Virus record (IMG/VR): IMGVR_UViG_3300025009_000051
Coordinates: 96,001 to 160,000 of that record
DNA: 64,000 bases
Reading direction: 5' to 3' (one strand)
DNA from: a virus
The notes under the pieces were generated by a model. It was given only the letters and a program-made list of their open reading frames with translations, was not told where the DNA came from and ran no database searches. Every line of letters starts with the position of its first letter. Within the stretch, counting starts at the first letter, position 1. Shown one piece after another: positions 4,759 through 63,046 of this stretch. The position numbers and the translations under genes were made by a program.

Positions 4759-4779
4759 TCTTGCATATAAAACAAAATA

Positions 4780-4877
4780 GGGCCGAGTAGGTCCGAATTA
4801 ACGCCTTTGGAGAGTAACTCGTTGGAGCCTCATTGAATTAGGAAAAATGAATATAAAGAAATTTATATGAAATTTAA
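4780..4877 (+). ncRNA. Orphan TnpB omegaRNA (reRNA) scaffold, copy B
   Basis: ~83% identical to the tnpB 3' end at 19120-19218 and 96/98 identical to 51445-51542; no tnpB upstream. Confidence 0.8.
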
Positions 4878-4903
4878 TATTATGTTTTCGTTAAACTAAT
4901 AAA

Positions 4904-5966
4904 ATGAAACACAAAATCAATTCAGGTAAACTTCCTTTCTATATCGAATCTTTCGAAGTAGAAAAATCTTCTGTTCATATTTCATTTGAAACCTATACTT
5001 GTAAATGGTTAATAGATGGAATTAAAACAGAATATAATATCTTTGAATATCGCATTACTTCTTTATTTGATCTTACTGAAATCGAAGCAATGGATTTAGT
5101 TCAACCAATTATGATTGAGAAAGGAGAAATTATAGACGATGTGACAGGTGAACAATTAAAAGAAGATATGCTCATTGGATTTGAAAATTATATGAAAAAA
5201 CCTAAGCATGCGAATATTATGCATTTTAATTCTGCAATAGATTCTCTAAAATCTTTAATTCAATATGAATATTCAGAATATGATGATTCAAAAAATTATT
5301 TATTGATTATACCAAAACAGTTTAAAAATGGAAATTCTACCACATGAACTCACAACGACTAAAAAAATGAAGCAATCCTTTTATAAAAAATATTTAGAGT
5401 ATTCTTGGTTAGATGCTTTCTATTCTTTCTTTCGTTATGAATTAACCAATCTATTTAAAAATATTTGGTTATTCAGAAAAGATTTATGGAAATTTCGTTG
5501 GTATGATTATGGATATACTCTTAATATTCTACAGACATCTTTAGAAGCTATGGAAAAAGGAATGCATAATGGATATGAAGTACCTGAATCAAGAAATAAA
5601 AAAATTGCTAAAATGCAAAGATCAATTCAAATTTTAAATAATATTAAAACAAATAATTATTATGAATTGGCAGAAAATGAATTACATTTAAAATATACTT
5701 ATGTGCCTTTTGATTTTGAGCCATTAAAAAATAACCCAGAATATTTTAAATTAGTGTCTAAAGAATCTAAAGAAGTTAAAGAAACAAATCGTAAAATTAG
5801 TGATAGAGCGAGAGAAATAGAACAATCGGAATGGAATGAATTATGGGATATTTTTAAAGGTCGGGATATTAACGAATACATAAAATTAAGAAAAGAAAAT
5901 GAGAAAGATAATGGATTATACGATAATTGGTTTGACGGATCTGGAATGTTAGGTTGGTGGGATTAA
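4904..5966 (+). CDS. Two hypothetical ORFs: 4904-5347, 5328-5966
   Basis: Overlapping co-oriented ORFs; no motif recognised. Confidence 0.65.
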
Positions 5967-13978: not shown

Positions 13979-15088
13979 TTAATTTTTTGATTTTTTTATT
14001 CCTGCTAATTCTTGTAAGCGTCTTACTTGAGGATCTACATTAGAAACAATCTTTTTCATTGTCGGTTTAATATTTCTTGAACTTAATCCTTCTTGTAATT
14101 TTTTCTTCAAAGGACTGTTTACTTTTTTAGCAGCAACAACTTGTTTTTTATTAGCTAAATTTTCATTTAAAATTCTAAATACCAATTTAACTTCTTTAAC
14201 GGTGTCAGCTTTATCGAATGATTCAACCAATTTTAATTTTTGATCTTTATTCAAATCAAAGTTTTTAAATAATTTGTTCAAGTACAATAATTTTGAATTT
14301 AATAAATTAACTTCTGATAATGTGCTTTTCATTTCTCTAATTACTTTGTAAGCTTCACCTAATTTAGTACGTAATTCAGCAACCGGTTCTTCATCTTCAA
14401 CTTCTTCTTCGTCATCTTCTAATGCTTTTAAAATTTCTGAAATATCTTCATCTTCTTCAGGTTCATCTTCAGTAGTTTCATCTTCTTCAGTTATTTCTTC
14501 TTCATCTTCTTCAGTTCCATCTTCAAGATTTTTTAATATTTCATCTAATTCATCTTCACTAAATTCGTCGGTTTCATCTTCTTCAGTTACTTCTTCATCT
14601 TCGGAATTAAAGTCTTCGTCGTCAGATATGTCTAAATCTTCATCTCCGGTATCTTCAATATCTTCTAAATCTTCGTCTTCAATTTCTTCGATTTCATCTT
14701 CTTCTCCATCTAACATTTCTTCTAAATCATCATCTGATATATCGAAATCATCTTCGTCTTCCATGTTTTCATCTTCTTCAGTTACTTCTTCGTCATCCAT
14801 GTATTCGTCTTCGTCAAAGTTTTCATCTTCTTCAGTTACTTCTTCGTCATCCATGTATTCGTCATCTTCGATTTCGTCTTCTTCTGTGATTTCTTCATCA
14901 TCTGTAATTTCATCTTCAAAGTCATCTTCCATTTCTTGTTTTAAGTTCTTTTTAAATAAACTTTGCAATTGTGGAGTAAATGCTTCTTCTAATTGTGCTT
15001 TAGCGTTGGTTAATGCAGCTTGTTTAATTTGACGAGCATCTGCAATTGCTTCTTCTAACAGCGTTTTTTGCTTAATTTCTTTAGCCAT
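13979..15088 (-). CDS. Prohead core/scaffold protein with long acidic repeat region
   Basis: EAIADA N-terminus, D/E-rich EEVTEEDE repeats, EVNLLNSKLLY C-terminal block; immediately upstream of the capsid gene. Confidence 0.8.
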   Translation of the reverse strand: MAKEIKQKTLLEEAIADARQIKQAALTNAKAQLEEAFTPQLQSLFKKNLKQEMEDDFEDEITDDEEITEEDEIEDDEYMDDEEVTEEDENFDEDEYMDDEEVTEEDENMEDEDDFDISDDDLEEMLDGEEDEIEEIEDEDLEDIEDTGDEDLDISDDEDFNSEDEEVTEEDETDEFSEDELDEILKNLEDGTEEDEEEITEEDETTEDEPEEDEDISEILKALEDDEEEVEDEEPVAELRTKLGEAYKVIREMKSTLSEVNLLNSKLLYLNKLFKNFDLNKDQKLKLVESFDKADTVKEVKLVFRILNENLANKKQVVAAKKVNSPLKKKLQEGLSSRNIKPTMKKIVSNVDPQVRRLQELAGIKKSKN

Positions 15089-17782: not shown

Positions 17783-17821
17783 TTGATTTAATTTTAATTG
17801 GTTATAATATTATATAAACAA

Positions 17822-17854
17822 AAAACGTACAAATATTTATTCTTTGTACGTTTT
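17822..17854 (-). terminator. Perfect 12-bp hairpin with T-run on - (terminator/attenuator, or IS left-end hairpin)
   Basis: AAAACGTACAAA / TTTGTACGTTTT. Confidence 0.45.
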
Positions 17855-17982
17855 ATTCATTTGTATTATATTAATTTAACGAAATTATACAAAAATATAT
17901 TGATTTATATAAATTTATTGTTTGAAAAAAATTAGGTTCTTTTTTTATTTTTTATAGTTATATGTATAAAAAGAATGTATAA

Positions 17983-19176
17983 ATGTTAAAAGCAATTAAA
18001 ATAAGAATATATCCAAATCAAGAACAAATGAATTATATAAATAATTTATTAGGATCTGCAAGATTTGTTTATAACAACTGCTTGGCATTTAAGATTGATT
18101 CTTATAACAACGAAAAGAAAAATGTTGGATTCGCTGAATTAGGTAGATATTTGACTGAATTGAAACAGAAAGAAGAATTTATTTGGTTAAAAGATGTACA
18201 TGCTAAGGTCTTGCAGCAATCTCTAATTAATCTAAATCAAGCTTATTCTAATTTTTTTAAAAATGGATTTGGATTTCCTAATTTCAAGAGTAGGAAAAGC
18301 TACAAGCAATCTTGTAGATTTCCGAAAGATGCAATTGGTAAGATTGAAGAAAATAAAATAACTTTGATTAAACAATTAAAAAATATTCCATTTAGATGCT
18401 CTGAAAGAGATAAAAATTATTTGAACTCTCATCAAGAAAATATTCATTCTGCGACACTCTTAAAAACTAAAACAAATAAATATTATCTTTCAATTTTAAT
18501 TGATTTTGAGTTAAATAAAAAATTAAAAGAAACAGAAAAAATCATTGGAATTGATCTTGGAATTAAAAATTTTATTGTAACTTCTGAGAATGAAAAAATT
18601 GAAAATATTAAAATTATTAGAAACAATCAAGAAAAATTAAAAAAATTACATCAAAATTTATCAAAGAAGAAAAACGGATCAAAAAATAAAGAGAAAGCAA
18701 GGATCAAATTGGCCAGATTCAACGAAAAATTAAACAACAAAAAAGAGTTTTATTTGCATCAAATATCAAATCAATTATTAGATGAAAACCAAGTCATAAT
18801 AATGGAAGATTTAGATATTAAGAGCATGCTTCAAAATCATCAATTAGCTCGAAGTATCCAAGAATTGTCTTTATATACATTTAAATCAATCTTGAAATAC
18901 AAAGCTAAATGGTATAATAGAGACATCATTGAAATCAATAAATTCTTTCCTTCGTCAAAATTATGTTCTTCTTGTGGTTACAAGAAAGATGATTTAGAAT
19001 TAAAAGACAGAAATTGGACCTGTCCAGAATGTGGAGCAGAACATGAAAGAGATTTAAATGCAGCTAAAAATATTTTGAAAGAAGGAAAGAGAATATTAGA
19101 AATAAAAGAAAACAAAATAGGGCTGAGTAGGCCCGAATCAACGCTTGTGGAGAGCAACTCATTAGAGTCTCGTTGA
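17983..19176 (+). mobile_element. tnpB: IS200/IS605-family RNA-guided endonuclease TnpB; no tnpA adjacent
   Basis: N-terminal KAIKIRIYPN...ARFVYN; RuvC I IGIDLG, RuvC II IMEDL, RuvC III RDLNAAKNI; CSSCG/CPECG zinc finger. Confidence 0.95.
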
Positions 19177-19218
19177 AACAAGAAAAAATTCATATAAAGA
19201 TTTTTATATGAAATTTAA
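19120..19218 (+). ncRNA. omegaRNA scaffold overlapping the tnpB 3' end (copy A); guide position follows from about 19219
   Basis: GGGCT/GGCCC stem, TCAACG/CGTTGA stem, CTTG/CAAG pseudoknot, perfect 10-bp TTCATATAAA/TTTATATGAA hairpin then ATTTAA. Confidence 0.85.
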
Positions 19219-19280
19219 TACTATATTGACTATAATCTCTAATCTGACTCAAAAGATGTGTGGCACGATCGCCAAATTGT

Positions 19281-19740: not shown

Positions 19741-19985
19741 GTCTTTATTATTTAATGTTCGTTTTACAAATATATAGATAATAAATGAAAGAAACAAATA
19801 ATTTTATTGATCTTCTTCGGTTAATATGTTTAAATCTGTTAAAAAATTTTCCACCTTCTCACATGATTCGCCAAGCAAGAAAAGGTAGGTGGCATCATAA
19901 ATTAAAGTTTTCATTTGTTCGCTTGTTGCACTACTAAATGCTGTTTCTAATTGTTTTGTATCAATTTTCATAACTAATATATTAG

Positions 19986-30908: not shown

Positions 30909-32126
30909 AATTTCTTATTATTTCAGTTTTTAATTTTAATTCTCCTAATTCAGTTAAATTATATATAATTTCATCCTTTATTTTATTACAGGTATATTTT
31001 CCTCCAAATGATCCGACAGAGTTAGTAATGGTAAGAAAAAATCTATGATACACAATGTGTTCTGACTTCATAAGAATATACAATCCTAATTCAAAAATAC
31101 CGTTACAAATTAAAGAATTTAAAAGAAGAGTATCTTTAGAATTAGAAGTGTATATTTCTACATATGGAGATCTTTCAGAATAACTTATTTTCTTTATTGA
31201 TAGAATTTGAAAAGGTATTTTATTCTTTTCTATTTTTACAATAAAGACAGATGGAATTTCATTTATTGTCATATGATTCTTCTACCATCTTTTATTTTTG
31301 AGTGGCATGGTACGATATGCTTCCCAAACTCGACTTCTTAAATTCTTATCAGAAGTGTAAAGTTGCAATGCTCTTGATAAAGATATTTTTCTTCCTTTAT
31401 CTTTTACTCGAGTGTCATCTACACTACATTGAGCGGAAGCGGCTACGATTAATTCATTGGCTTCATAAATTCTACAATAAGTGATTCGGTCTTCATATGA
31501 CCACTTAATTTTTAAATTTTCGATTTTTAACATAACAGTATATTTTTAAATTGTGAATTTAATATTCGGAATTTATAAGAAATTCTTCAACATCCTTTAC
31601 ACTAAAACATCTTGCGAATTTACCTGTATTTTCATTTAATACTATCACAAAATCAAGTGCACCGTAATTAAACGCCAATTTAGCTGCTTCAATATCAAAT
31701 ACACATAAAGCATTATATTTTGGCATTACTGGCTGGCAATCTGAATATTTTTCATCTAGAATTCTTAACATGACAGTATATTTTTAAATTGCGAATTGCG
31801 AATTGTGAATTCTTTTACAAATGTAAATAATTTTTTTGATATTAACAAATTGAATTTGCGATTGCACTATCGTTTGCATAGAAATTCTTTGCTAATTGTA
31901 TTTCTTGTAATTTTATTTTATAAGATTCTTTTATTTGATCAATAACTTCATCAAAATGTTTGCTTGCATTTGCATCAAAGGTAGCCTCTGTAGGATGATC
32001 ATAATTTCCTTTAAATTCCACTTCAAACCCATTTTCTCGTAAAAAATTCTTTAATAATAATATCATTCTAGATTTGCCAGAATTATATTGGCCAGATACT
32101 GTAATAATTAAATCTTTCTTTTCCAT
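30883..32126 (-). CDS. Four hypothetical ORFs: 30883-31272, 31282-31533, 31559-31771, 31842-32126
   Basis: Co-oriented ORFs; 31842-32126 has a P-loop-like SGQYNSGKS. Confidence 0.6.
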
Positions 32127-35930: not shown

Positions 35931-36619
35931 CTAACCTTTTATTTTAGGTATGTTTTTATTGAACTCTTTACAGATATTAGCCATTGCTTCAAATATATCT
36001 GATAAAGGTTGATTAGTTGAACTAATTGGAGAATCATCTTTATATTCATTTTCTTTATCTCTTCCAGGTACTTCTTCAATAAATTCATAAGTAAAATCAT
36101 TGTGCTTGCACCAATCTATAATTTGATCTTTTGTAGCATTACTAAAAAAGCAATCTTCAAATTGTTCTTGATTTCCTTCAAACACATCTCCGTTGTCAAT
36201 TAATATTTTCATGTTCTTTTGTTTTTATTACTACAAATTTACAAATAAAATTTGATATAAAAAAATATTATTTAAAATAAATTTTAAGTTTGATAATCAG
36301 GATCTTTTGGTGGAGCAAAGTCCATCATAATTGCGGTTAGAGTTTTAAATAAATGTTTTGTGCTCCACATCGCTAATATGTGTTTTTCACTCCAAATCAT
36401 ATATTCTGCGTCTACTTTATAATATCCGCCGTCGTCTGTTACAATAATCCAATTTTTGGTTGTTTGTGGATCATTACCTTTATAATACGCAAAACAATGT
36501 TTCCAATTTCGATTGTTATGTGGTAATAACTTTGATTTAATAAACTCTTGAGCAGAATCTGGTAATGTGTCTCCTTCAAATTCTTTCCAACCATTACAAT
36601 TAAAATTTATCTTTTTCAT
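35931..36619 (-). CDS. Two hypothetical ORFs: 35931-36212, 36284-36619, each behind a TAnnTTTG promoter
   Basis: ORF track plus promoter motifs. Confidence 0.6.
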
Positions 36620-36705
36620 GTTATTTGTTTTTTATACTACAAATATAAACTAAAAAAATGATTTAAAAAAATAATTTTATATTTATTTTAAAAATATTTT
36701 ACGTC

Positions 36706-41980: not shown

Positions 41981-42038
41981 CTTCTTTTGTTTTTATATTA
42001 CAAATATACAACGAATAAATGACAATAAAAAATTATTT

Positions 42039-44541
42039 TTAATTTATTTTTTTAAAACAATCACAAGATTTACAATATTCTTCTGATATTTTTGTTCTTA
42101 AATTTGTTTCTCCTAAATCCGTCAATGTCCAGCATCCCATTCGACCGTTCAATGCTTCCGGGTAATCGCACCATTTAGGTTGTTTAAAATTTTCCAAAAT
42201 ATAACCGATAGTTCGTTTTTCTTCAATTAATTGATCTATCTCTTCTTGAGTCAATTCGTGAAAATATTTCTTGTTGGGATTTGTGATATTAATCGGTGTT
42301 TCTGATTCAATTATTATTTTCATTTTCTTCATTTATTTTTGTAATTTTAAATCCTGCATTCTTTAATTGATTTTCAAAATCTACACAAATATTTCTATAT
42401 TTTTGAATTCCCCCGTCACATCTGGATAGGAATAAAAACAAGTCTACACCTTCATCATTTAATACCCAATCAAATCCTTTTGTAAAAACTTGTATAGTTG
42501 CATTTACAACATACAATCTTTTCTTTTTTGTCATTGTTTCGACATTTCGAATACAAAATAAATTTGAATGTCTACCAATTAGTAGGTTATCCAGATTATT
42601 GTTAATCTCATCAAGTGTTTCTTGATTAATTCTTATTTTCATATTTTTTTATTTAATTAAAAGAAAACTGCATCGTTTAGGTTGTAGAAGTCCAATTTAC
42701 AAAGATAAAATTCCTACTGCACAAACAATAAGGATTAAAACAAAAATTGTTTTTTGACTTAAAGTCATTTGATCAAAATCTTTTTCTAATAAAAACATAT
42801 CTTTTTAATTTTAAATTTATATTACAAAGTTAAACGAATTTATTGAATAATCAAATTATTTTATATGTTTTTTTATTTCAATAAATATCTTGCAAGATAT
42901 ATAAATTCCTGTGAAAATATAAAATATAAAAAAAATAATATTTTCATCTTTAGTTGAAGTAGGAACATAATGTTCTGCAATGGTGCATAAGAAAACAAAA
43001 CCTAGAGTAAGTAATATACCCAATGCAGCATTTTTAAAAATAATTATTGGTATCATAGCTTTTATTTTTATAGTAATTCTGAATGATAAAATTTAACGAA
43101 CGGATCAACTTTAAATAACCATACAAATTTATATTGGTCTTCTTTTGGAATAGAATCTAAAATTTTTCTGATTTGAGGTGTGTTTGTAATGAGGAATCCT
43201 CCTGTCATGTGTTCTTCTCCATTTCGTGTAATTACAGCGAATTCATTTGTCTTACTAAAGTTATTAGCAACCAATTCAACTTCTTCATATCCGTTTGTTT
43301 CGGAAGTAATGTGTAAGATTTTCATAATTGTTTAGTTTTAATTAAAAATAAAAAATATAATATATAAGAGTAAACCTATTGACATAAATAATAAATATGC
43401 CCCAGACAATTGAAATTTTTCATCTATTTTATTTTTTGTCTTTTCTTTATTATATGCTAAATTTCCAAAAATAGCAAATAAGAAATACAACAAAGAAATT
43501 ATTTTTAATACAAAGAATAAAAAAGAACTTTCAGCATACATTTCAGCAGTAAAACACGCTGCTCCAATAAGAACAACCATCATACTACACACAAACGATA
43601 TCCAACTAATAGTAAAATAAAATTTTGATTCATATTTTAAAAATTGAATTGTATCTTCTATTCCGGTTCTATATTTATTAAAAATTCTATTCTTTTCAGA
43701 TTTCTTCTTTTTATTTTCTTTTAAATTTCTTTCTTGCCGTAATATTTGTAGACAAAAGGAGAAATCTTCTTCTGATACATCTGTTCCCATTGTTTCCATT
43801 TCAATTAAATATCCTAATTGAATTTTTGCATCTTGAATATCTTTTTTAATTAATGAAAAAGTATCATGATATTCTCGATATGATTTTTCAGTTATCATAA
43901 AAGATTTTTTTCCACATACCAATTCTTTTGTATTGTAATATGGATCGATTTCTTTAGGTCGTTTTGGTAATTCCATAATATTTTAGTGAAGGTATAAATA
44001 AACATTTACAAATAATCTTAATGCATTAATTGCAGTCGAATCTGCTCTTTGAATTGCTCCTTGTAAATCATTATTACAAATTGCTTGAACAAAACTTCCT
44101 CCTCTCATTACATTATCTCGAGTATTAACAATGCTCATACAAAGATTAGTTATGTGATCAAGTTCAACTAAACTTGTACAATTATTTGAAATTAAACTAA
44201 TATTTTTTTCAACATATTGTTGAACAGCTTCTCGTTCCATATTAATTATTTTAAATTACTTCGTTTATTAAACACCTCATATCTTCTTCAAATCTTTCAA
44301 AATATGCAAACAAGTCGTCTACATTCTCCAAAGGAATTGTATATAACAATTCATCTTTAAACCAGTGCGGATAATTTTTAACATCTTCTTGAAAAGAATC
44401 TGGATATGTATTTTCATATTCTTTTTTATCCGTTCCCTTCAAATATATCTTAATGAATTTTCCATCTTTAACTGCCTTATGAGTATCATTTTGTTTAATA
44501 ATACTGTTGACTTTCTTTGTTTTTAATGCTTCTAATTCCAT
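42039..44541 (-). CDS. Run of hypothetical ORFs: 42039-42332, 42307-42642, 42856-43056, 43068-43325, 43338-43976, 43983-44240, 44251-44541
   Basis: Co-oriented ORFs, several hydrophobic, behind TAnnTTTG promoters. Confidence 0.6.
42661..42695 (+). mobile_element. Solo IS200/IS605-type end-hairpin remnant
   Basis: 42671-42691 matches the reverse complement of 15220-15240 at 20/21 nt; ends AAGTCCAA. Confidence 0.5.
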
Positions 44542-44635
44542 TTCGTTTGTTTTTATACTACAAATATACAACGAATAAATGAAACAAAAAAATAATTTTG
44601 AATAATTTTTTATATTTATTGTAAATGAATTTAGT

Positions 44636-49141: not shown

Positions 49142-49906
49142 TTAAATTTTATTAAAATAATTTTCTAAATCTATTATTAATTTTTGTAAATCTGCATCAT
49201 AAAATCCTGCACAATTAATACATCCACATTCTATTATTTTATAACCATTATTTGTGTTGGCTATATCCATTACAAAAGCATCTGCTAATTGGAAAATATT
49301 TATCATTTTTTCACAAAATTTAATAGCATTTTCATCTACCAAATTATTCTTATAATTTACAAATCCACCTATTCTATATGTAGAATATGTTGATATTTTT
49401 CCACCCACTATCCAAAATCTGCTTTCATTATATATTTGTTTTACTTTGGATACTTGGATTTTTACATTTTTGTTCACAAACTTATTCTTAAGACACGATT
49501 GCCTCTTTTCATCCCACTCATATTTATCAAATACAGCACCAGTAAATGTTTTTGTATCCAATGTAGGTCGGATGAACTTTCTTTTTGTAAAATCAATTTC
49601 ATCATTAATGCCACAAATAATCGAATCATAATTTAATAAATTGTCTTTATAATAGTCTTTATAAATTTCATAATTATGATTTTCATTTGCTAAACTACCA
49701 GGATAAAAATTAAAATTTTTACCTATTCTGGCTAATTTAAGGCTACCAAATAAAAATACATTTGTTTCTTTTGTTTTAAATTTTAAATTTTCTGTAAAAG
49801 GTAGAACTTTAACTATTTCATAATTAAGATTCAATCTTTCCAATGAATTTATGATATTATCATAATTCTGTTCTCTGAATGTATTTTCTTGAATTATATA
49901 ATGCAT
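49142..49906 (-). CDS. ATP-grasp domain protein (R2K-like)
   Basis: FIRP...KTFTG, ESRFWIVGG, FVMDIA...KIIECGCIN.AGFY. Confidence 0.75.
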   Translation of the reverse strand: MHYIIQENTFREQNYDNIINSLERLNLNYEIVKVLPFTENLKFKTKETNVFLFGSLKLARIGKNFNFYPGSLANENHNYEIYKDYYKDNLLNYDSIICGINDEIDFTKRKFIRPTLDTKTFTGAVFDKYEWDEKRQSCLKNKFVNKNVKIQVSKVKQIYNESRFWIVGGKISTYSTYRIGGFVNYKNNLVDENAIKFCEKMINIFQLADAFVMDIANTNNGYKIIECGCINCAGFYDADLQKLIIDLENYFNKI

Positions 49907-49923
49907 GATATTTAAATTTATAT

Positions 49924-51411
49924 TTATGAGTTTCTTATATCGCAAGCCGGTCTCCAGAATGAATTGTTATACCATCTAAGTCTTAAATTAGTCAACAATT
50001 CATTTAAATGAGTTTTATCTATTGATTCTGGTAAATCACAGTTATCATAAATCTCATCAATAATTTTAATTTCATTTTTAGCTTGATCAATAATAGTTTG
50101 TAAATCTACTTTACCTTTTCTAATATCAATTAATTTATCTGCATCTGGACGTTTTAAAATCATTCCTTTCCCTTCAGCAATTTCACGACTCATACTTAAT
50201 AATCTAACACAATGCATTAAATTTTTTCCGTCTATTTGTTGCTTATGTGATTCAACATCTACCCATCTATTTAAATTTCTTTCCTTTAACCAAGTTTGAT
50301 AATTTTGATATTCTTTACAATGAGTAGAATAAGAATTTAAATCATATAAAATAAAAGCTTTTATTCTTTCATTTTTTGGTATTGAAGACAATCTAATTTC
50401 ATTACTAACTATTTCATCTTCTTGATTCATTTTTATAATACCATTGTATTTTATTTCCGGTTTATCTTCATAAAACAATCCAAATACCATAATATATTTG
50501 TAAGCATCTTTAGGTTGAAGTTTACTTGATTTATATAAAGGTTCTAATAAATGTTTATAAGCGTTTGATAAATCTAATACATCTTGGTATTGAATGTTTG
50601 AATTGTGTTTCATGACATCCAATTTAGCATTCAGATTATTAATTTTTACAAGTAGACTATCTGAAAAACCATTTACGTCTAATACTCCATATTTAGATAA
50701 GATTTGAAGTTGTTTAGATAAATGAAATGATAATAATTGCCAATCATTTATATCAGCATGATGTTTAATAAATTCAATTAATTTATCATAGGTGTGAGGA
50801 ATAGGAACCAATCCACATTTAGCTTGATCTAAATCATTTTGTTTTAACCAATCTATAATTGGAATTGTTTCTTTTTCTTGAATGACCGAAATAAAATCAA
50901 GTGGAGTTTTTCTTTTTGTTTTTGCTTTATTCCAATTCTGAAATTTATTTTGTCCTTGACTTTTTTGTATTTGTGCCGAAGCATATCCACCTACTGAATA
51001 TTTGCATTGCTTTGTTAGAAATTTTGTTCTCTCGCATATTAATTCATGTAGAATTGGATGACGGTAAATTAAATTTTCATCATCTAAAAATAGCAATTCC
51101 AGAACCCCCGGATTTGAACTTAACAACAATTCAATATATCTTCCAATTTCAAAAAATACATTGTCGCCTTTAGGATTACCTTTTGAATCAAGTTCTCCGA
51201 ATGCTAATTGAGGATAATAAGTAGAGCCCAATCCAAATAGATATTTTTCCGGTATGATATAAATGCCTTTAAAATCTTCATCACTTCCTTCTGAATTAGT
51301 ACCATATAAATGACTACCAACTCTTGCAAGCAATAAAATCTCAAATTCTAAAATATCATCAGAATAAGTAGAGTCTAAATTTCTCTCTTTTAAAAAATCC
51401 TTTATTAACAT
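49924..51411 (-). CDS. Pol-beta superfamily nucleotidyltransferase (RlaP/YcgL-like)
   Basis: GSHLYGTN...SDEDFKGIY; NPGVLELLF; KNLMHCVRLL. Confidence 0.8.
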   Translation of the reverse strand: MLIKDFLKERNLDSTYSDDILEFEILLLARVGSHLYGTNSEGSDEDFKGIYIIPEKYLFGLGSTYYPQLAFGELDSKGNPKGDNVFFEIGRYIELLLSSNPGVLELLFLDDENLIYRHPILHELICERTKFLTKQCKYSVGGYASAQIQKSQGQNKFQNWNKAKTKRKTPLDFISVIQEKETIPIIDWLKQNDLDQAKCGLVPIPHTYDKLIEFIKHHADINDWQLLSFHLSKQLQILSKYGVLDVNGFSDSLLVKINNLNAKLDVMKHNSNIQYQDVLDLSNAYKHLLEPLYKSSKLQPKDAYKYIMVFGLFYEDKPEIKYNGIIKMNQEDEIVSNEIRLSSIPKNERIKAFILYDLNSYSTHCKEYQNYQTWLKERNLNRWVDVESHKQQIDGKNLMHCVRLLSMSREIAEGKGMILKRPDADKLIDIRKGKVDLQTIIDQAKNEIKIIDEIYDNCDLPESIDKTHLNELLTNLRLRWYNNSFWRPACDIRNS

Positions 51412-51444
51412 AACTTCAATTTATTTTTGTATTTCGTTATAGTA

Positions 51445-51542
51445 TTAAATTTCATATAAATTTCTTTATATTCATTTTTCCTAATTCAATGAGTCTCCAA
51501 TGAGTTACTCTCCAAAGGCGTTAATTCGGACCTACTCGGCCC
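51445..51542 (-). ncRNA. Orphan TnpB omegaRNA scaffold, copy C
   Basis: Reverse complement is 96/98 identical to 4780-4877; no tnpB upstream. Confidence 0.8.
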
Positions 51543-51559
51543 TATTTTCTTTTATAATA

Positions 51560-51590
51560 CAAATTTAAATATTTTTTTGATATAAACAAA
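51560..51590 (-). promoter_or_regulatory. Bacteroidota-type promoter TTTG-N19-TAAATTTG directly upstream of omegaRNA copy C
   Basis: Exact consensus match and spacing. Confidence 0.7.
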
Positions 51591-51845: not shown

Positions 51846-54800
51846 TTATTTTAAATTTTTAAGAAGTTCATGTAGATCTTCAATATAAATATCGACTGGT
51901 TCTTTCTTATTTATTTCTTCATAATTATCTTCTAATTGTTTTTTCTTTTTCTTATACTCTTCAGTAGTTTCTTTTGATAATGTATGAACAGGTAAATTTA
52001 ATAAATAATTGTATGAGTCATCTATCTTATCAAATTTAAACTTTTCTAATTGAGTTATGATTTCAGTTTTAGGTGTATCATTTATTTTAAGTTTGTTCTC
52101 GAAAATTTTTATAGAGAACAAGATCTTGTTAGATAATATTTTTATGTCCTTAGATATACTATCGAGTAAGAACGTCTTTCTTTTCGTTATATAAGGTAGT
52201 CTAAAATGTAAAAAATGAGTGATGATATCATAAATATTTTCAAACTGTTTTAATTTTCCAAATTCATCTAATACATTCAAATTTTCAGATTCATATGAAG
52301 TCAATTTTAATAATTTCATAATATCCTCTTTGGTAAAATCGGCTAAATCAGATCTTGAAAATTTAATTATGTATTCAATATTTTCTTTACTGTTATTTTC
52401 ATAATCTACAATTTTTCTTTTATCTATTAATTCATTCAAATATATTTCATAATCTTCAAACTCCCAATTTGGAGGAAGTTCTGTAATCTTAATTGTATTG
52501 GTATTTATCCTTTCATATGTTCCACTGAATATCCATCTTTTATTTGTTTCATCGAAAAAAGTATTTTCATTATTTGTAAAATCTGGATAATAGGGTTTAA
52601 TTATTTTATTTTTTATTTTCTTACCTTTTAAAATATCAATACAAATATTAATAATTTCTTGAGGATTTCTATTTAAAATATTTGTGGCAAATCCAACAGC
52701 AATACCAGAAGAACCATTTATTAATACCATTGGAATAATAGGTAGAAAATATTTTGGTTCTATTTCTACTCCCTCATCGAATGTAGGAGTTAATAAATTA
52801 TTATCTTTATAAAGATATTCGAAATTTGGTGAAATTTTTGTACTTACATATCTTGCAGCACCTGCTTCTCTATCTCTAAAAGAACCATATTGTCCAATAT
52901 CCAATAATAAAGGTAAATTATTTTTAAAGGTTTGTGCCATATTAATAATGGCTCCTTCTAAGCTTACATTTCCATGATGATAGTGTTGAGTGTCTGCAAT
53001 TCTACCTGCACATTGAAATACTTTAGTTTCTTTGGTTATTTTTCTTGCTTCATTTATAATTTTCCTTTGTGTTGGTTTAAATCCATCTATTGCACTTGGT
53101 ATTGCTCTTTGTTCAATCACATGATAAGCATATGACAAATATTCTTCATTTAAATATTGTGAAATAGTTTTTACATCTTTTGTATATAATATCTCTTCAA
53201 CTAAATTTTCTACAATTATTTTCTTTCTTAAATCTGTTTCTCTACCAAACCATATTTCCAATAATTCTTTTGAATTTTCGTCTAATTTAAATTGAATTAA
53301 TTTTGGAGATTGAATAATCTTTTTATACTCTTCATTTTCTAAAGCAGCTAACCCCTTTTTATAACTTATGTCCCATTTCTTTAATTCTGTTTCTTTTAAT
53401 TTATGTAACCAATGATTATATTCTGTTTCTGAATAAAATTCTAAAACTTCTTTATTGTGCTTTGCTACAACAACCGGAGTTAATATTCTAAATACTTTTC
53501 CTTGCTCATATAATTCTGGCCAAAAAGTGTAAAAGAAATTAATTAATAAACCTGCAATTGCGTCTCCGTCAGTATCAGAGTCACTCATGATTCGAATTTC
53601 ATTATATCTTAAATCTGTAGCTTTTTCTCCAATTTTTAATCCTACAGCCGCCATCAAATCTTTTAACTCTTTATTTTTATATACATCAAGAGATTCAATT
53701 TTCGAAACATTCTTAACCTTGCCTCTCAATGGAAATAAACCATGAATTTTATTATCCATATATTTTCTGGCGCCGCTTTTGGCCGAATCCCCTTCAGTAA
53801 TTAAAAGTATGCAACCAGATCTATCTGTATTTTTAGCATCTATTAATTTATCTACAATGACTTTATGAATTTTTCTATTTTCTATTCTTAAATCTCTTTC
53901 CTTTGCTTCTTCTTCTTTCTTTTTTGCCCAATCAATTATACTTGCACATATTTCACTATTAAATAATTTATTTAGAAATTTTTCACTTACAATATGTTCT
54001 GTTCCAAAATCAACTGGTTTAGTAGACAATTTTTGTTTTGTTTGACTTCCAAAAGCAGGATTGATAATTGTAGAATTAATAAATAAAAATAAATGTTGCT
54101 TAATACCATATGGAGTGATATTAACCTTATATTTCTTTTTTATTTTTTCTCTTAACCAATCTGTAATTTGATTTGCTATGTATTCTACATGCTCTCCGCC
54201 TTCTGGAACAGATAAACTATTTACAAAACTAATATGATTAAATCCTTTTGTTGACAATTTAATTGCTATCGACCAATCTTTACTTTCTTCAAATATTATA
54301 TCTTCGGCCGCACTTTCAAATAAATCACTAAATTCTTTAAATGATTTATATTGATATTTTTCTTTTACTCCGTCTACATCTAATACAATTTTTAATCCAG
54401 AATTACAGGCCGCGACATTAATAATTTTAAATCTTATCCAGTCAATTAAATCTTTATCTATAATTGTATAATCAAATCTTTTGTAATCGGGTGTGAACTT
54501 TATTTCTGTATAATGTTCTTTTGAATTTTCTATTTTAAAATCTTCAAATACAGATAAATTATCTCGATAGGTTCTTTGAAATTGTTTTTTTCCATCTGCA
54601 CTTTTTATTGTGAATTTTTTGGAGAAAATATTAGTTATACTACTACCTACTCCATTTCTACCTGCCACAATTCTATTTTCTGTATCATCAAAATTGCTAC
54701 CCGACCTTAATTTACTCACGATTAAATCTGGAATATATAGATTATATTCTGAGTGCATAATTATTGGAATTCCACCGTTGTCCCAAACTGATATTTCACC

Positions 54801-55067
54801 TGTCTTGGTGTTTAGCTTAACTTTAATAGCATCTATAACATTATTTCTTAAATGCTCGTCTACACTATTAGAAATAATTTCGTTGAATATTTGAAATAAT
54901 CCGGGAGAAGCATTAATTTGCGTTGAAACCAATTTATTATTTTTTAAGCTATAAATTTCAACTGCTTGCCTTGATGTAGATCCGATCATAATTTCGGGTC
55001 TTTTTAAAATATACTCTACTTCATCTTGAATCCATTGATATTTTTGTTCTAAAGTTTTTTGTTGCAT
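51846..55067 (-). CDS. Type IIA DNA topoisomerase, B (ATPase/TOPRIM) and A subunits in one polypeptide
   Basis: EIISNSVDE, GRNGVG, TEGDSA, PLRGK, MSDSDTDG; then RAIPSAIDGFKPTQRK, YHHG and catalytic AARY. Confidence 0.93.
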   Translation of the reverse strand: MQQKTLEQKYQWIQDEVEYILKRPEIMIGSTSRQAVEIYSLKNNKLVSTQINASPGLFQIFNEIISNSVDEHLRNNVIDAIKVKLNTKTGEISVWDNGGIPIIMHSEYNLYIPDLIVSKLRSGSNFDDTENRIVAGRNGVGSSITNIFSKKFTIKSADGKKQFQRTYRDNLSVFEDFKIENSKEHYTEIKFTPDYKRFDYTIIDKDLIDWIRFKIINVAACNSGLKIVLDVDGVKEKYQYKSFKEFSDLFESAAEDIIFEESKDWSIAIKLSTKGFNHISFVNSLSVPEGGEHVEYIANQITDWLREKIKKKYKVNITPYGIKQHLFLFINSTIINPAFGSQTKQKLSTKPVDFGTEHIVSEKFLNKLFNSEICASIIDWAKKKEEEAKERDLRIENRKIHKVIVDKLIDAKNTDRSGCILLITEGDSAKSGARKYMDNKIHGLFPLRGKVKNVSKIESLDVYKNKELKDLMAAVGLKIGEKATDLRYNEIRIMSDSDTDGDAIAGLLINFFYTFWPELYEQGKVFRILTPVVVAKHNKEVLEFYSETEYNHWLHKLKETELKKWDISYKKGLAALENEEYKKIIQSPKLIQFKLDENSKELLEIWFGRETDLRKKIIVENLVEEILYTKDVKTISQYLNEEYLSYAYHVIEQRAIPSAIDGFKPTQRKIINEARKITKETKVFQCAGRIADTQHYHHGNVSLEGAIINMAQTFKNNLPLLLDIGQYGSFRDREAGAARYVSTKISPNFEYLYKDNNLLTPTFDEGVEIEPKYFLPIIPMVLINGSSGIAVGFATNILNRNPQEIINICIDILKGKKIKNKIIKPYYPDFTNNENTFFDETNKRWIFSGTYERINTNTIKITELPPNWEFEDYEIYLNELIDKRKIVDYENNSKENIEYIIKFSRSDLADFTKEDIMKLLKLTSYESENLNVLDEFGKLKQFENIYDIITHFLHFRLPYITKRKTFLLDSISKDIKILSNKILFSIKIFENKLKINDTPKTEIITQLEKFKFDKIDDSYNYLLNLPVHTLSKETTEEYKKKKKQLEDNYEEINKKEPVDIYIEDLHELLKNLK

Positions 55068-62956: not shown

Positions 62957-63046
62957 ATTCTTTTTATTTTCTATATACAAATATACAGTTATTAAATGAA
63001 GTAAACAAATTTATTTTAATTCAAATTTTTCTTTTTTAATACTTAA

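What the first reader, a model, noticed from the sequence alone, without database searches (positions are those of the whole stretch)
51412..51590. Orphan TnpB omegaRNA copy C behind a perfect host-type promoter
Seen: on -, TTTG-N19-TAAATTTG is followed 17 nt later by a 98-nt scaffold that is 96/98 identical to copy B, 47 kb away and inverted. It is followed by a different tail (TACTATAACGAAATACAAAA) and then the nucleotidyltransferase ATG. No left end or tnpB remnant precedes it. B and C use different promoter classes, so the two guides could be made at different infection stages (inference).
Basis: partly seen in the sequence, partly recalled or inferred. Interest (0 to 1): 0.85.

Follow-up and report, generated by a model that had tools for sequence, protein, structure and literature searches.

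The report
Nuclease-less TnpB guide-RNA cassette in phage
A large phage carries, between a promoter and a nucleotidyltransferase gene, a complete copy of the guide-RNA scaffold of its transposon nuclease TnpB without the nuclease gene; it is a leftover of a jumping element that could still arm the phage's TnpB, and elements of this kind are already known.

Summary
On the minus strand a TTTG-N19-TAAATTTG promoter (51590-51560) is followed 17 nt later by a scaffold that is 96/98 identical to copy B. A different tail and the nucleotidyltransferase (NTase) ATG (51411) come next.

Copy C is a solo guide-RNA cassette. It keeps the whole 115-nt core of the omegaRNA that ends the one cognate, catalytically intact tnpB (17983-19176).

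The scaffold family has covariation-supported helices, and its centre resembles RAGATH-18. Relatives carry a serine-recombinase tnpA, so the family is IS607-type. In environmental contigs, 12 of 36 copies lack tnpB. One is a clean deletion of the ORF and one an in-frame internal deletion. A Lak megaphage also has a solo copy.

C lies between a canonical phage promoter and the gene start, so it is transcribed as the gene's leader, and its "guide" is native leader sequence.

I found no host or phage target above chance. I found no support for stage-specific promoter classes.

Most likely it is a selfish, non-autonomous element that TnpB could use in trans to cut alleles lacking the insert. It may instead be an inert young relic.

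This scan has met the same kind of element in at least 15 other genomes. It is a new member of a known kind.

The parts
51560..51590 (-). Promoter of the Bacteroidota -33/-7 type: TTTG at 51590-51587, a 19-nt spacer, TAAATTTG at 51567-51560
   Evidence: The motif is about 4-fold enriched in the window. By my count of the rows printed, this copy shares about 25 of 31 letters with another phage promoter at 31818-31849 (-) that has no scaffold behind it.
51557..51560 (-). Left junction GTAT. It overlaps the last G of the -7 box and is a candidate target-adjacent motif or minimal left boundary.
   Evidence: The same GTAT is present at eight mapped left junctions of family members with unrelated flanks. 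Its role as a TAM is inference by analogy with IS607 (10.1101/2023.11.20.567912).
51439..51553 (-). OmegaRNA scaffold copy C, 115 nt, ending in CTAT
   Evidence: Score is 103.7 bits with family model R1. All four covarying helices are intact. There is a sub-threshold RAGATH-18 match at 51478-51518.
51419..51438 (-). Guide position: the first 16-20 nt after the scaffold, which are the native leader of the downstream gene
   Evidence: All 43 distinct family scaffolds diverge immediately after the terminal TAT. This stretch is unpaired in the predicted fold.
49924..51411 (-). RlaP-type nucleotidyltransferase gene, whose mRNA leader contains copy C
   Evidence: Pfam PF10127, E 2.5e-15. No terminator or second promoter lies between scaffold and ATG.
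17983..19176 (+). Cognate intact tnpB (397 aa), the only candidate partner protein in the record
   Evidence: Pfam HTH_OrfB_IS605, OrfB_IS605 and Cas12f1-like TNB. E 2e-64 to ISDra2 TnpB, with the D-E-D triad aligned. It is the only hit for PF07282 in the record.
19109..19224 (+). OmegaRNA scaffold copy A, overlapping the last 68 nt of tnpB
4769..4883 (+). Solo scaffold copy B, 97% identical to C, inverted, 20 nt upstream of the ATG of ORF 4904-5347

Best explanation
Copy C is a transposase-less and nuclease-less derivative of an IS607-type TnpB insertion sequence. Only the roughly 115-nt TnpB-binding core of the omegaRNA (reRNA) survives. It sits between a canonical phage promoter and the start of an RlaP-type nucleotidyltransferase gene. 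Shown: the scaffold is complete and conforms to a family whose structure is supported by covariation. tnpB-less copies of the family are frequent, and two of them are visibly internal deletions. Inferred: the promoter, or read-through from the topoisomerase operon, transcribes the scaffold as the first part of the gene's mRNA. The start lies about where the functional core begins, so no 5' processing is needed. The TnpB made from 17983-19176 binds this RNA in trans, and the 16-20 nt of native leader that follow the scaffold become its guide. The only DNA carrying that sequence next to a permissive motif (candidate GTAT, instead of the scaffold's own CTAT) would be the same locus in a related, co-infecting phage that lacks the insert. 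Cutting it would copy the cassette in by recombination (non-restorative homing) or exclude the rival allele. The cassette is thus a selfish passenger using the phage's TnpB, not a host-directed weapon.
For: Anatomy and identity. Only three copies and one cognate tnpB in the record. TnpB intact. Structured RNA family: 38 scaffolds from the window and 35 environmental loci have 7 pairs with changes on both sides, against 3.0 +/- 1.1 in shuffles and 0-4 with slid partners (28 such cells against 4.9); C keeps all helices. A, B and C score alike with the family model (103-105 bits) and fall within the range of tnpB-linked copies (56-123 bits), although they were in the training set. The A/B/C homology spans 116 nt. 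This equals the part of the ISDra2 omegaRNA (-116 to -1) that is ordered on TnpB and sufficient for cleavage (PMC10097598). Origin by deletion: L045 shares 171 nt of left end with full-length L055 but lacks the ORF, and L048 fuses the first ~20 and last ~12 tnpB codons. 12 of 36 loci with at least 300 nt upstream lack tnpB. A solo copy exists in Prevotella phage Lak-B8. IS607 type: a resolvase-domain tnpA overlaps tnpB in L059, and there is a RAGATH-18 sub-threshold match. Insertion into a leader: other phage promoters lie about 20-27 nt from their ATG, by my count of the rows, which matches the tails of B (20 nt) and C (27 nt). No terminator follows the scaffold. Literature: gene-less elements encoding omegaRNAs that TnpB must use in trans (10.1101/2023.03.14.532601); 36% of RAGATH-18 RNAs are not next to a TnpB (PMC11061315); homing between co-infecting phages is foreseen (PMC13565253).
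Against: No RNA, RNP or cleavage data exist. The TAM is not established. No allele without the insert could be retrieved. C differs from the tnpB-linked scaffold A at 16% of positions, so cross-use is assumed, not shown. B and C differ at only 4 of 115 positions, which a recent neutral copy explains as well as selection does. No tnpA is present in the (79% complete) record, so present-day mobility is doubtful. The census of tnpB-less copies is biased, because the search pattern required an intact 38-nt core.
Confidence: 0.55

Rival explanations
1. Inert young relic. C is debris from a decayed element. It is transcribed only because it lies in a leader, is not used by TnpB, and is kept only because too little time has passed for it to decay.
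For: B and C differ at 4 of 115 positions, compatible with a recent copy. No transposase is present in the record. No target was found other than the cassette's own locus. Deletion end points differ among family members, as expected for random decay.
Against: The cassette retains the core from the position equivalent to -116 through to the right end. Solo copies with complete scaffolds recur in many contigs and in a Lak megaphage. The A versus B/C differences include a compensatory double change in the enclosing helix (columns 32/70). By my reading of the alignment against the helices, the two B-C differences inside the helical core fall at unpaired positions.
Confidence: 0.3
2. Cis-acting leader. 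TnpB binding to, or processing of, the scaffold in the 5' UTR tunes expression of the nucleotidyltransferase/ATP-grasp genes, whatever the DNA targeting.
For: The scaffold is obligatorily part of the mRNA, 27 nt from the ATG, with no terminator. About a third of family copies (9 of 29 distinct right flanks) lie within 40 nt of a same-strand gene start, against 17% of random positions (within 60 nt).
Against: The enrichment is weak. B and C precede unrelated genes. The position is also what selection against gene disruption in a dense phage genome would give.
Confidence: 0.08
3. Domesticated multi-guide system. B and C are guide genes expressed at different stages and aimed at the host or at competing phages, as a CRISPR-like weapon.
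For: One intact nuclease plus two separately promoted scaffolds with different tails.
Against: The tails are ordinary gene leaders of typical length. The guide-C search with the candidate motif gave 4 hits in 596 Gb of species genomes and 1 in IMG/VR. All are in-frame coding chance matches that stop at 16 nt. No near match with a suitable flank occurs in the phage itself. No difference in promoter class was demonstrable. No repeats or array are present.
Confidence: 0.07

Closest known systems
Protein-less (PATE-like) IS200/IS605 derivatives that encode omegaRNAs, Geobacillus stearothermophilus (Meers et al. 2023, 10.1101/2023.03.14.532601)
   Same: There is no protein gene. An omegaRNA with a flank-derived guide is retained and must be served in trans by a TnpB encoded elsewhere in the same genome.
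   Different: Those elements keep both palindromic ends and are mobilised by a Y1 TnpA. Here the family is IS607-type, almost nothing of the left end remains, no transposase is present, and the carrier is a large phage.
IS607 TnpB with RAGATH-18-derived reRNA (ISFba1, PMC11061315) and CboIStron IS607 TnpB (10.1101/2023.11.20.567912)
   Same: Relatives have a serine-recombinase tnpA overlapping tnpB. The central helices match the RAGATH-18 consensus. The scaffold end and the left-junction motif share their last letters (CTAT and GTAT here, TCGG and TGGG in Cbo).
   Different: The RAGATH-18 score is below the Rfam threshold (26 against 44.9 bits). The described TAMs are G-rich, whereas the candidate here is AT-rich. 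The scaffold overlaps the tnpB 3' end, and the protein is closer to ISDra2 TnpB than to 8IAZ.
ISDra2 TnpB-omegaRNA (PDB 8EXA, 8BF8, 8H1J; PMC10097598)
   Same: It is the closest solved protein (E 2e-64) with the D-E-D triad kept. The functional RNA core is about 116 nt, followed by a 16-nt guide.
   Different: ISDra2 is an IS200/IS605 element with a Y1 TnpA and a TTGAT TAM. Its RNA sequence is not alignable to this family.
TldR (nuclease-dead TnpB-like repressors) and TranC / type V CRISPR
   Same: A TnpB-family protein uses a guide encoded apart from a mobile context.
   Different: The TnpB here has an intact RuvC triad, there are no CRISPR repeats, and the guide equals its own flank rather than a distant promoter or an acquired spacer.

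Membership tests
TnpB omegaRNA/reRNA scaffold family defined here (model R1) | Conserved sequence with covarying helices | tested here: met
   C scores 103.7 bits and all four helices are formed. C was in the training alignment.
TnpB omegaRNA/reRNA scaffold family defined here (model R1) | Scaffold ends at the element's right boundary and is followed by unrelated flank (the guide) | tested here: met
   43 distinct scaffolds diverge right after the terminal TAT. A, B and C have three different tails.
TnpB omegaRNA/reRNA scaffold family defined here (model R1) | Lies at or over the 3' end of a tnpB gene | tested here: not met
   No tnpB remnant lies upstream of C. It is met for copy A.
TnpB omegaRNA/reRNA scaffold family defined here (model R1) | RNA is made and bound by TnpB and directs TAM-dependent DNA cleavage | not testable with these tools
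There is no biochemical tool.
RAGATH-18 (Rfam RF03064) | Score at or above the curated gathering threshold | tested here: not met
   26.0 bits against 44.9, E 0.005 on 241 nt. No match at gathering threshold. The resemblance covers the outer helices and the GGAG/UGAA internal loop.
IS607-family insertion sequence | Serine-recombinase tnpA with tnpB | tested here: inconclusive
   Present in relatives carrying the same scaffold (L059, PF00239, E 2e-19). Absent from this phage record.
PATE-like non-autonomous IS200/IS605 element | Both transposon ends with subterminal palindromes and no protein gene | tested here: not met
   There is no protein gene, but no left end beyond a 4-9-nt junction motif. 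Similarity of the upstream DNA to A's left end is not above genome background.
TldR | Inactivated RuvC triad | tested here: not met
   D, E and D are aligned with ISDra2 D191, E278 and D361.
CRISPR array / TranC | Direct repeats flanking spacers | tested here: not met
   No such repeats around any copy.

The most novel reading that the evidence does not exclude
In large phages of Bacteroidota, IS607-type TnpB elements insert at a GTAT motif. That motif is created where a -7 promoter box (TAnnTTTG) meets the transcribed leader, so the elements become fused to promoters. After tnpB is lost they persist as promoter-driven solo guide genes. One TnpB with several such guides then acts as a multi-locus gene drive or marker-exclusion system between co-infecting phages.
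Probability: 0.15. Interest if true: 0.6.

Novelty: new member of a known kind. Interest (0 to 1): 0.35.

Why it matters
If TnpB really uses solo cassettes in trans during co-infection, each cassette marks a locus that is preferentially inherited. That would be a guide-RNA-based counterpart of the free-standing homing endonucleases of T-even phages. It would also show how a one-guide transposon nuclease comes to serve several separately encoded guides, a step on the path to CRISPR-like systems. The concept is already in the literature and has been seen repeatedly in this scan, so the present locus mainly adds a clean, well-delimited example. It also adds a family-level data set: covariance model R1, alignment A3 and 12 tnpB-less copies.

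Tried and rejected
1. Tails of B and C resembling the DNA just upstream of tnpB (17870-17904). The matches exist. Genome-wide Smith-Waterman ranking shows equal or better hits elsewhere. The shared part is largely the common gene-start context. Joining C's two flanks does not lift the match above background (47 against 46). Rejected as evidence of targeting or nested insertion.

2. TTGAT at 17900-17904 as the TAM, by analogy with ISDra2. Dropped once relatives placed the left junction further upstream, at GTAT.

3. The 16-nt block shared upstream of B and C as a left end. It is exact only at these two sites, but it matches the upstream consensus of the phage's own promoter family. Undecided.

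4. Empty-site search among all fetched loci: none found.

5. Relatives of the phage. The nearest topoisomerase is 46-48% identical, and the NTase has no relative in IMG/VR. G001 and G002 share only the TnpB.

8. Scaffold pattern in 185,579 species genomes: 0 hits. BLAST of C against published phages: no match.

9. A gene start close behind the scaffold as a family rule: only a weak enrichment.

Full report
**Observation.** The window is bases 96001-160000 of a 183.7-kb IMG/VR phage record that is 79% complete.
- TTTG-N19-TAAATTTG lies at 51590-51560.
- A 17-nt gap follows, then 98 nt that are 96/98 identical to copy B.
- A divergent tail follows, and the ATG of ORF 49924-51411 is at 51411.

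The repeat finder gives a 118-nt inverted pair, 97% complementary, at 4766-4883 and 51439-51556. BLAST and a covariance model each find three copies in the whole record and no more:
- A, 19109-19224 (+), overlapping the end of a 397-aa ORF.
- B, 4769-4883 (+).
- C, 51439-51553 (-).

B and C are 111/115 identical. A and C are 98/116 identical.

**The partner protein.** ORF 17983-19176 has the three Pfam domains of TnpB. It aligns over its whole length with ISDra2 TnpB (E 2e-64), with the RuvC residues D, E and D in place. It is the only Zn-ribbon TnpB in the record. A second, unrelated OrfB-like ORF lies outside the window. No serine recombinase is present.

**The RNA family.**
- A degenerate 38-nt pattern from the conserved core found nothing in 185,579 species genomes. 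It found 6 IMG/VR contigs and 44 metagenome contigs.
- All scaffolds start with ATAGGG and end with (A)CTAT, after which the sequences are unrelated. The guide therefore begins right after TAT.
- On an alignment of 38 scaffolds, four helices are supported by covariation. Seven pairs changed on both sides, against 3.0 +/- 1.1 in shuffles and 0-4 when partners are slid. There are 28 such cells against 4.9.
- C forms all four helices, and the single-sequence fold leaves the guide region unpaired.
- The central helices give a sub-threshold match to RAGATH-18 (26 bits, E 0.005). RAGATH-18 is the motif from which the reRNAs of IS607 TnpBs derive (PMC11061315).
- In several relatives a resolvase-domain tnpA overlaps the tnpB start (L059). 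The family is therefore IS607-type, not a Y1 IS200/IS605 element.
- The nearest TnpBs among published phages are those of Prevotella Lak megaphages (48-49%). The topoisomerase next to C is nearest to uncultured huge phages and a Chryseobacterium phage. This fits the Bacteroidota-type promoters.

**What C retains.** The homology of B and C with A spans 116 nt up to the guide. In ISDra2, nucleotides -116 to -1 are the part ordered on the protein, and the 5' region upstream can be deleted without loss of cleavage (PMC10097598). C therefore lacks nothing known to be needed. A, B and C score 103-105 bits with the family model, within the range of tnpB-linked copies, although they were in the training set.

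**How solo copies arise.** Of 36 loci with at least 300 nt upstream of the scaffold, 12 have no tnpB. That is 12 of 31 distinct scaffolds.
- L045 shares 171 nt of left end with full-length L055, but the ORF is missing from 11 nt before its ATG to 2 nt before the scaffold.
- L048 fuses the first ~20 and last ~12 codons of tnpB in frame.
- L025 keeps about 50 nt of the gene's end.

Solo copies are therefore internal-deletion derivatives with various end points. The census is biased towards intact cores by the search pattern. In Prevotella phage Lak-B8 the model finds three scaffolds. Two are tnpB-linked, and one has no tnpB within 1.5 kb and starts right after a stop codon.

**Context of C.**
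- The promoter motif is enriched about four-fold in the window (14 against 3.6 +/- 1.8). By my count of the printed rows, C's copy shares about 25 of 31 letters with a promoter at 31818-31849 that has no scaffold.
- By my count of the rows, other promoters of this type lie about 20-27 nt from the ATG they serve. The tails of B and C are 20 and 27 nt.
- C therefore reads as an insertion between a native promoter and its gene. The "guide" is the native leader.
- No terminator or second promoter separates the scaffold from the ATG. The scaffold must then be transcribed with the NTase and ATP-grasp genes, or by read-through from the topoisomerase operon upstream.
- The expected start, a few bases after the -7 box, coincides with the start of the A/B/C homology. 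This is inference.

**Left junction.** Where two family members with unrelated flanks could be compared, homology starts at GTAT (L045/L055, L033/L063/L066, L059, L062, L068). A and C read TTTGTAT and B reads CTTGCAT. The scaffold itself ends CTAT. In the IS607 element of C. botulinum, the TAM (TGGG) and the scaffold end (TCGG) likewise share their last letters, and self is told from non-self at the differing position. I therefore propose GTAT as the candidate TAM. A -7 box ending in TTTG followed by TAT creates it, which would explain why all three copies sit behind -7-like boxes. This is inference. One lineage (L039/L044) does not fit, and no empty site was found to prove it.

**Targets.**
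- Within the phage, the C guide has no match with two or fewer mismatches behind a suitable motif.
- GTAT plus 16 nt of guide C hits four contigs in 596 Gb of species genomes. TAT plus guide hits one IMG/VR contig.
- By my translation of the flanks printed, all five are in-frame coding matches (Y-N-E-I-Q-K). Two are the same gene, which looks like an OmpH/Skp chaperone gene, though I ran no family search on it. None extends beyond 16 nt.
- This is the chance expectation for an AT-rich 20-mer.

B has the same 16-nt -33 block and the same 19-nt spacer as C, with a -7 box that deviates at two positions. The "late" motif TATAnTTATA is not enriched. No difference in class can be shown.

**Interpretation.** What C is seems secure: a protein-less remnant of an IS607-type TnpB element, reduced to a complete guide-RNA cassette in a gene leader. 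What it does is inferred.
- Most likely, TnpB loads it in trans. The complex can cut only the homologous locus of a co-infecting relative that lacks the insert, giving homing or marker exclusion. This follows the logic shown for TnpB elements and foreseen for phages.
- The main rival is an inert, recently copied relic.
- A cis-regulatory role for the leader is possible but unsupported.
- A host-directed or phage-directed multi-guide weapon is also possible but unsupported.

**Novelty.** Gene-less elements encoding omegaRNAs that need TnpB in trans are described, and 36% of RAGATH-18 RNAs are not next to a TnpB. Earlier notes of this scan reached the same reading for copies A and B of this genome, and for solo scaffolds in at least 15 other genomes, mostly large phages. 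Copy C is a new member of a known kind.

Noticed in passing
L085 (Prevotella phage Lak-B8, MK250027.1 186814-186965, minus): A tnpB-less copy of the same scaffold family in a published megaphage genome. It is visibly similar to the tnpB-linked copy in L084 (identity not computed) and starts directly after the stop codon of the upstream gene.
   Followed up: partly
window 4766-4883 and 51439-51556: B and C form a 118-nt, 97% inverted repeat 46.5 kb apart. Recombination between them would invert the segment that holds tnpB and much of the replication module.
   Followed up: no
window 19748-19820, 36215-36287, 36621-36693, 41982-42054, 44542-44614, 62959-63031: A six-member family of about 73-nt intergenic repeats. 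Read on the other strand, they are promoters of the TTTG-N19/20-TATATTTG type with a conserved transcribed start.
   Followed up: partly
window 14445-14927 (inside minus-strand ORF 13979-15088): A dense run of 15-24-nt periodic repeats. On the coding strand they would, by my reading of the repeat units, encode an extremely acidic D/E-rich stretch (not translated here).
   Followed up: no
window 49142-51411 (minus): An RlaP-type nucleotidyltransferase is followed, with overlapping stop and start, by an R2K-clade ATP-grasp protein. This gene pair of unknown role lies downstream of C.
   Followed up: no
window 51846-55067 (minus): A single 1073-aa type IIA topoisomerase with GyrB-like and GyrA-like parts fused. 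In the T4-like and Xanthomonas phages hit, these are separate subunits.
   Followed up: partly
G000:C1:73995-74204 (minus), about 22 kb before the window: A second OrfB_IS605-type ORF (248 aa open frame, 43.8 bits) with no scaffold of family R1 next to it. Earlier notes mention further solo TnpB genes in the genome that my Pfam scans did not pick up.
   Followed up: no
L052 4955-5118 and 7661-7824 (minus): Two tnpB-scaffold units of a divergent branch of the family lie about 2.7 kb apart on one metagenome contig.
   Followed up: no
window 17820-17854: A 12-bp hairpin followed by a T run lies just upstream of the inferred left junction of element A. It may be a terminator of unknown ownership or part of the left end.
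   Followed up: no
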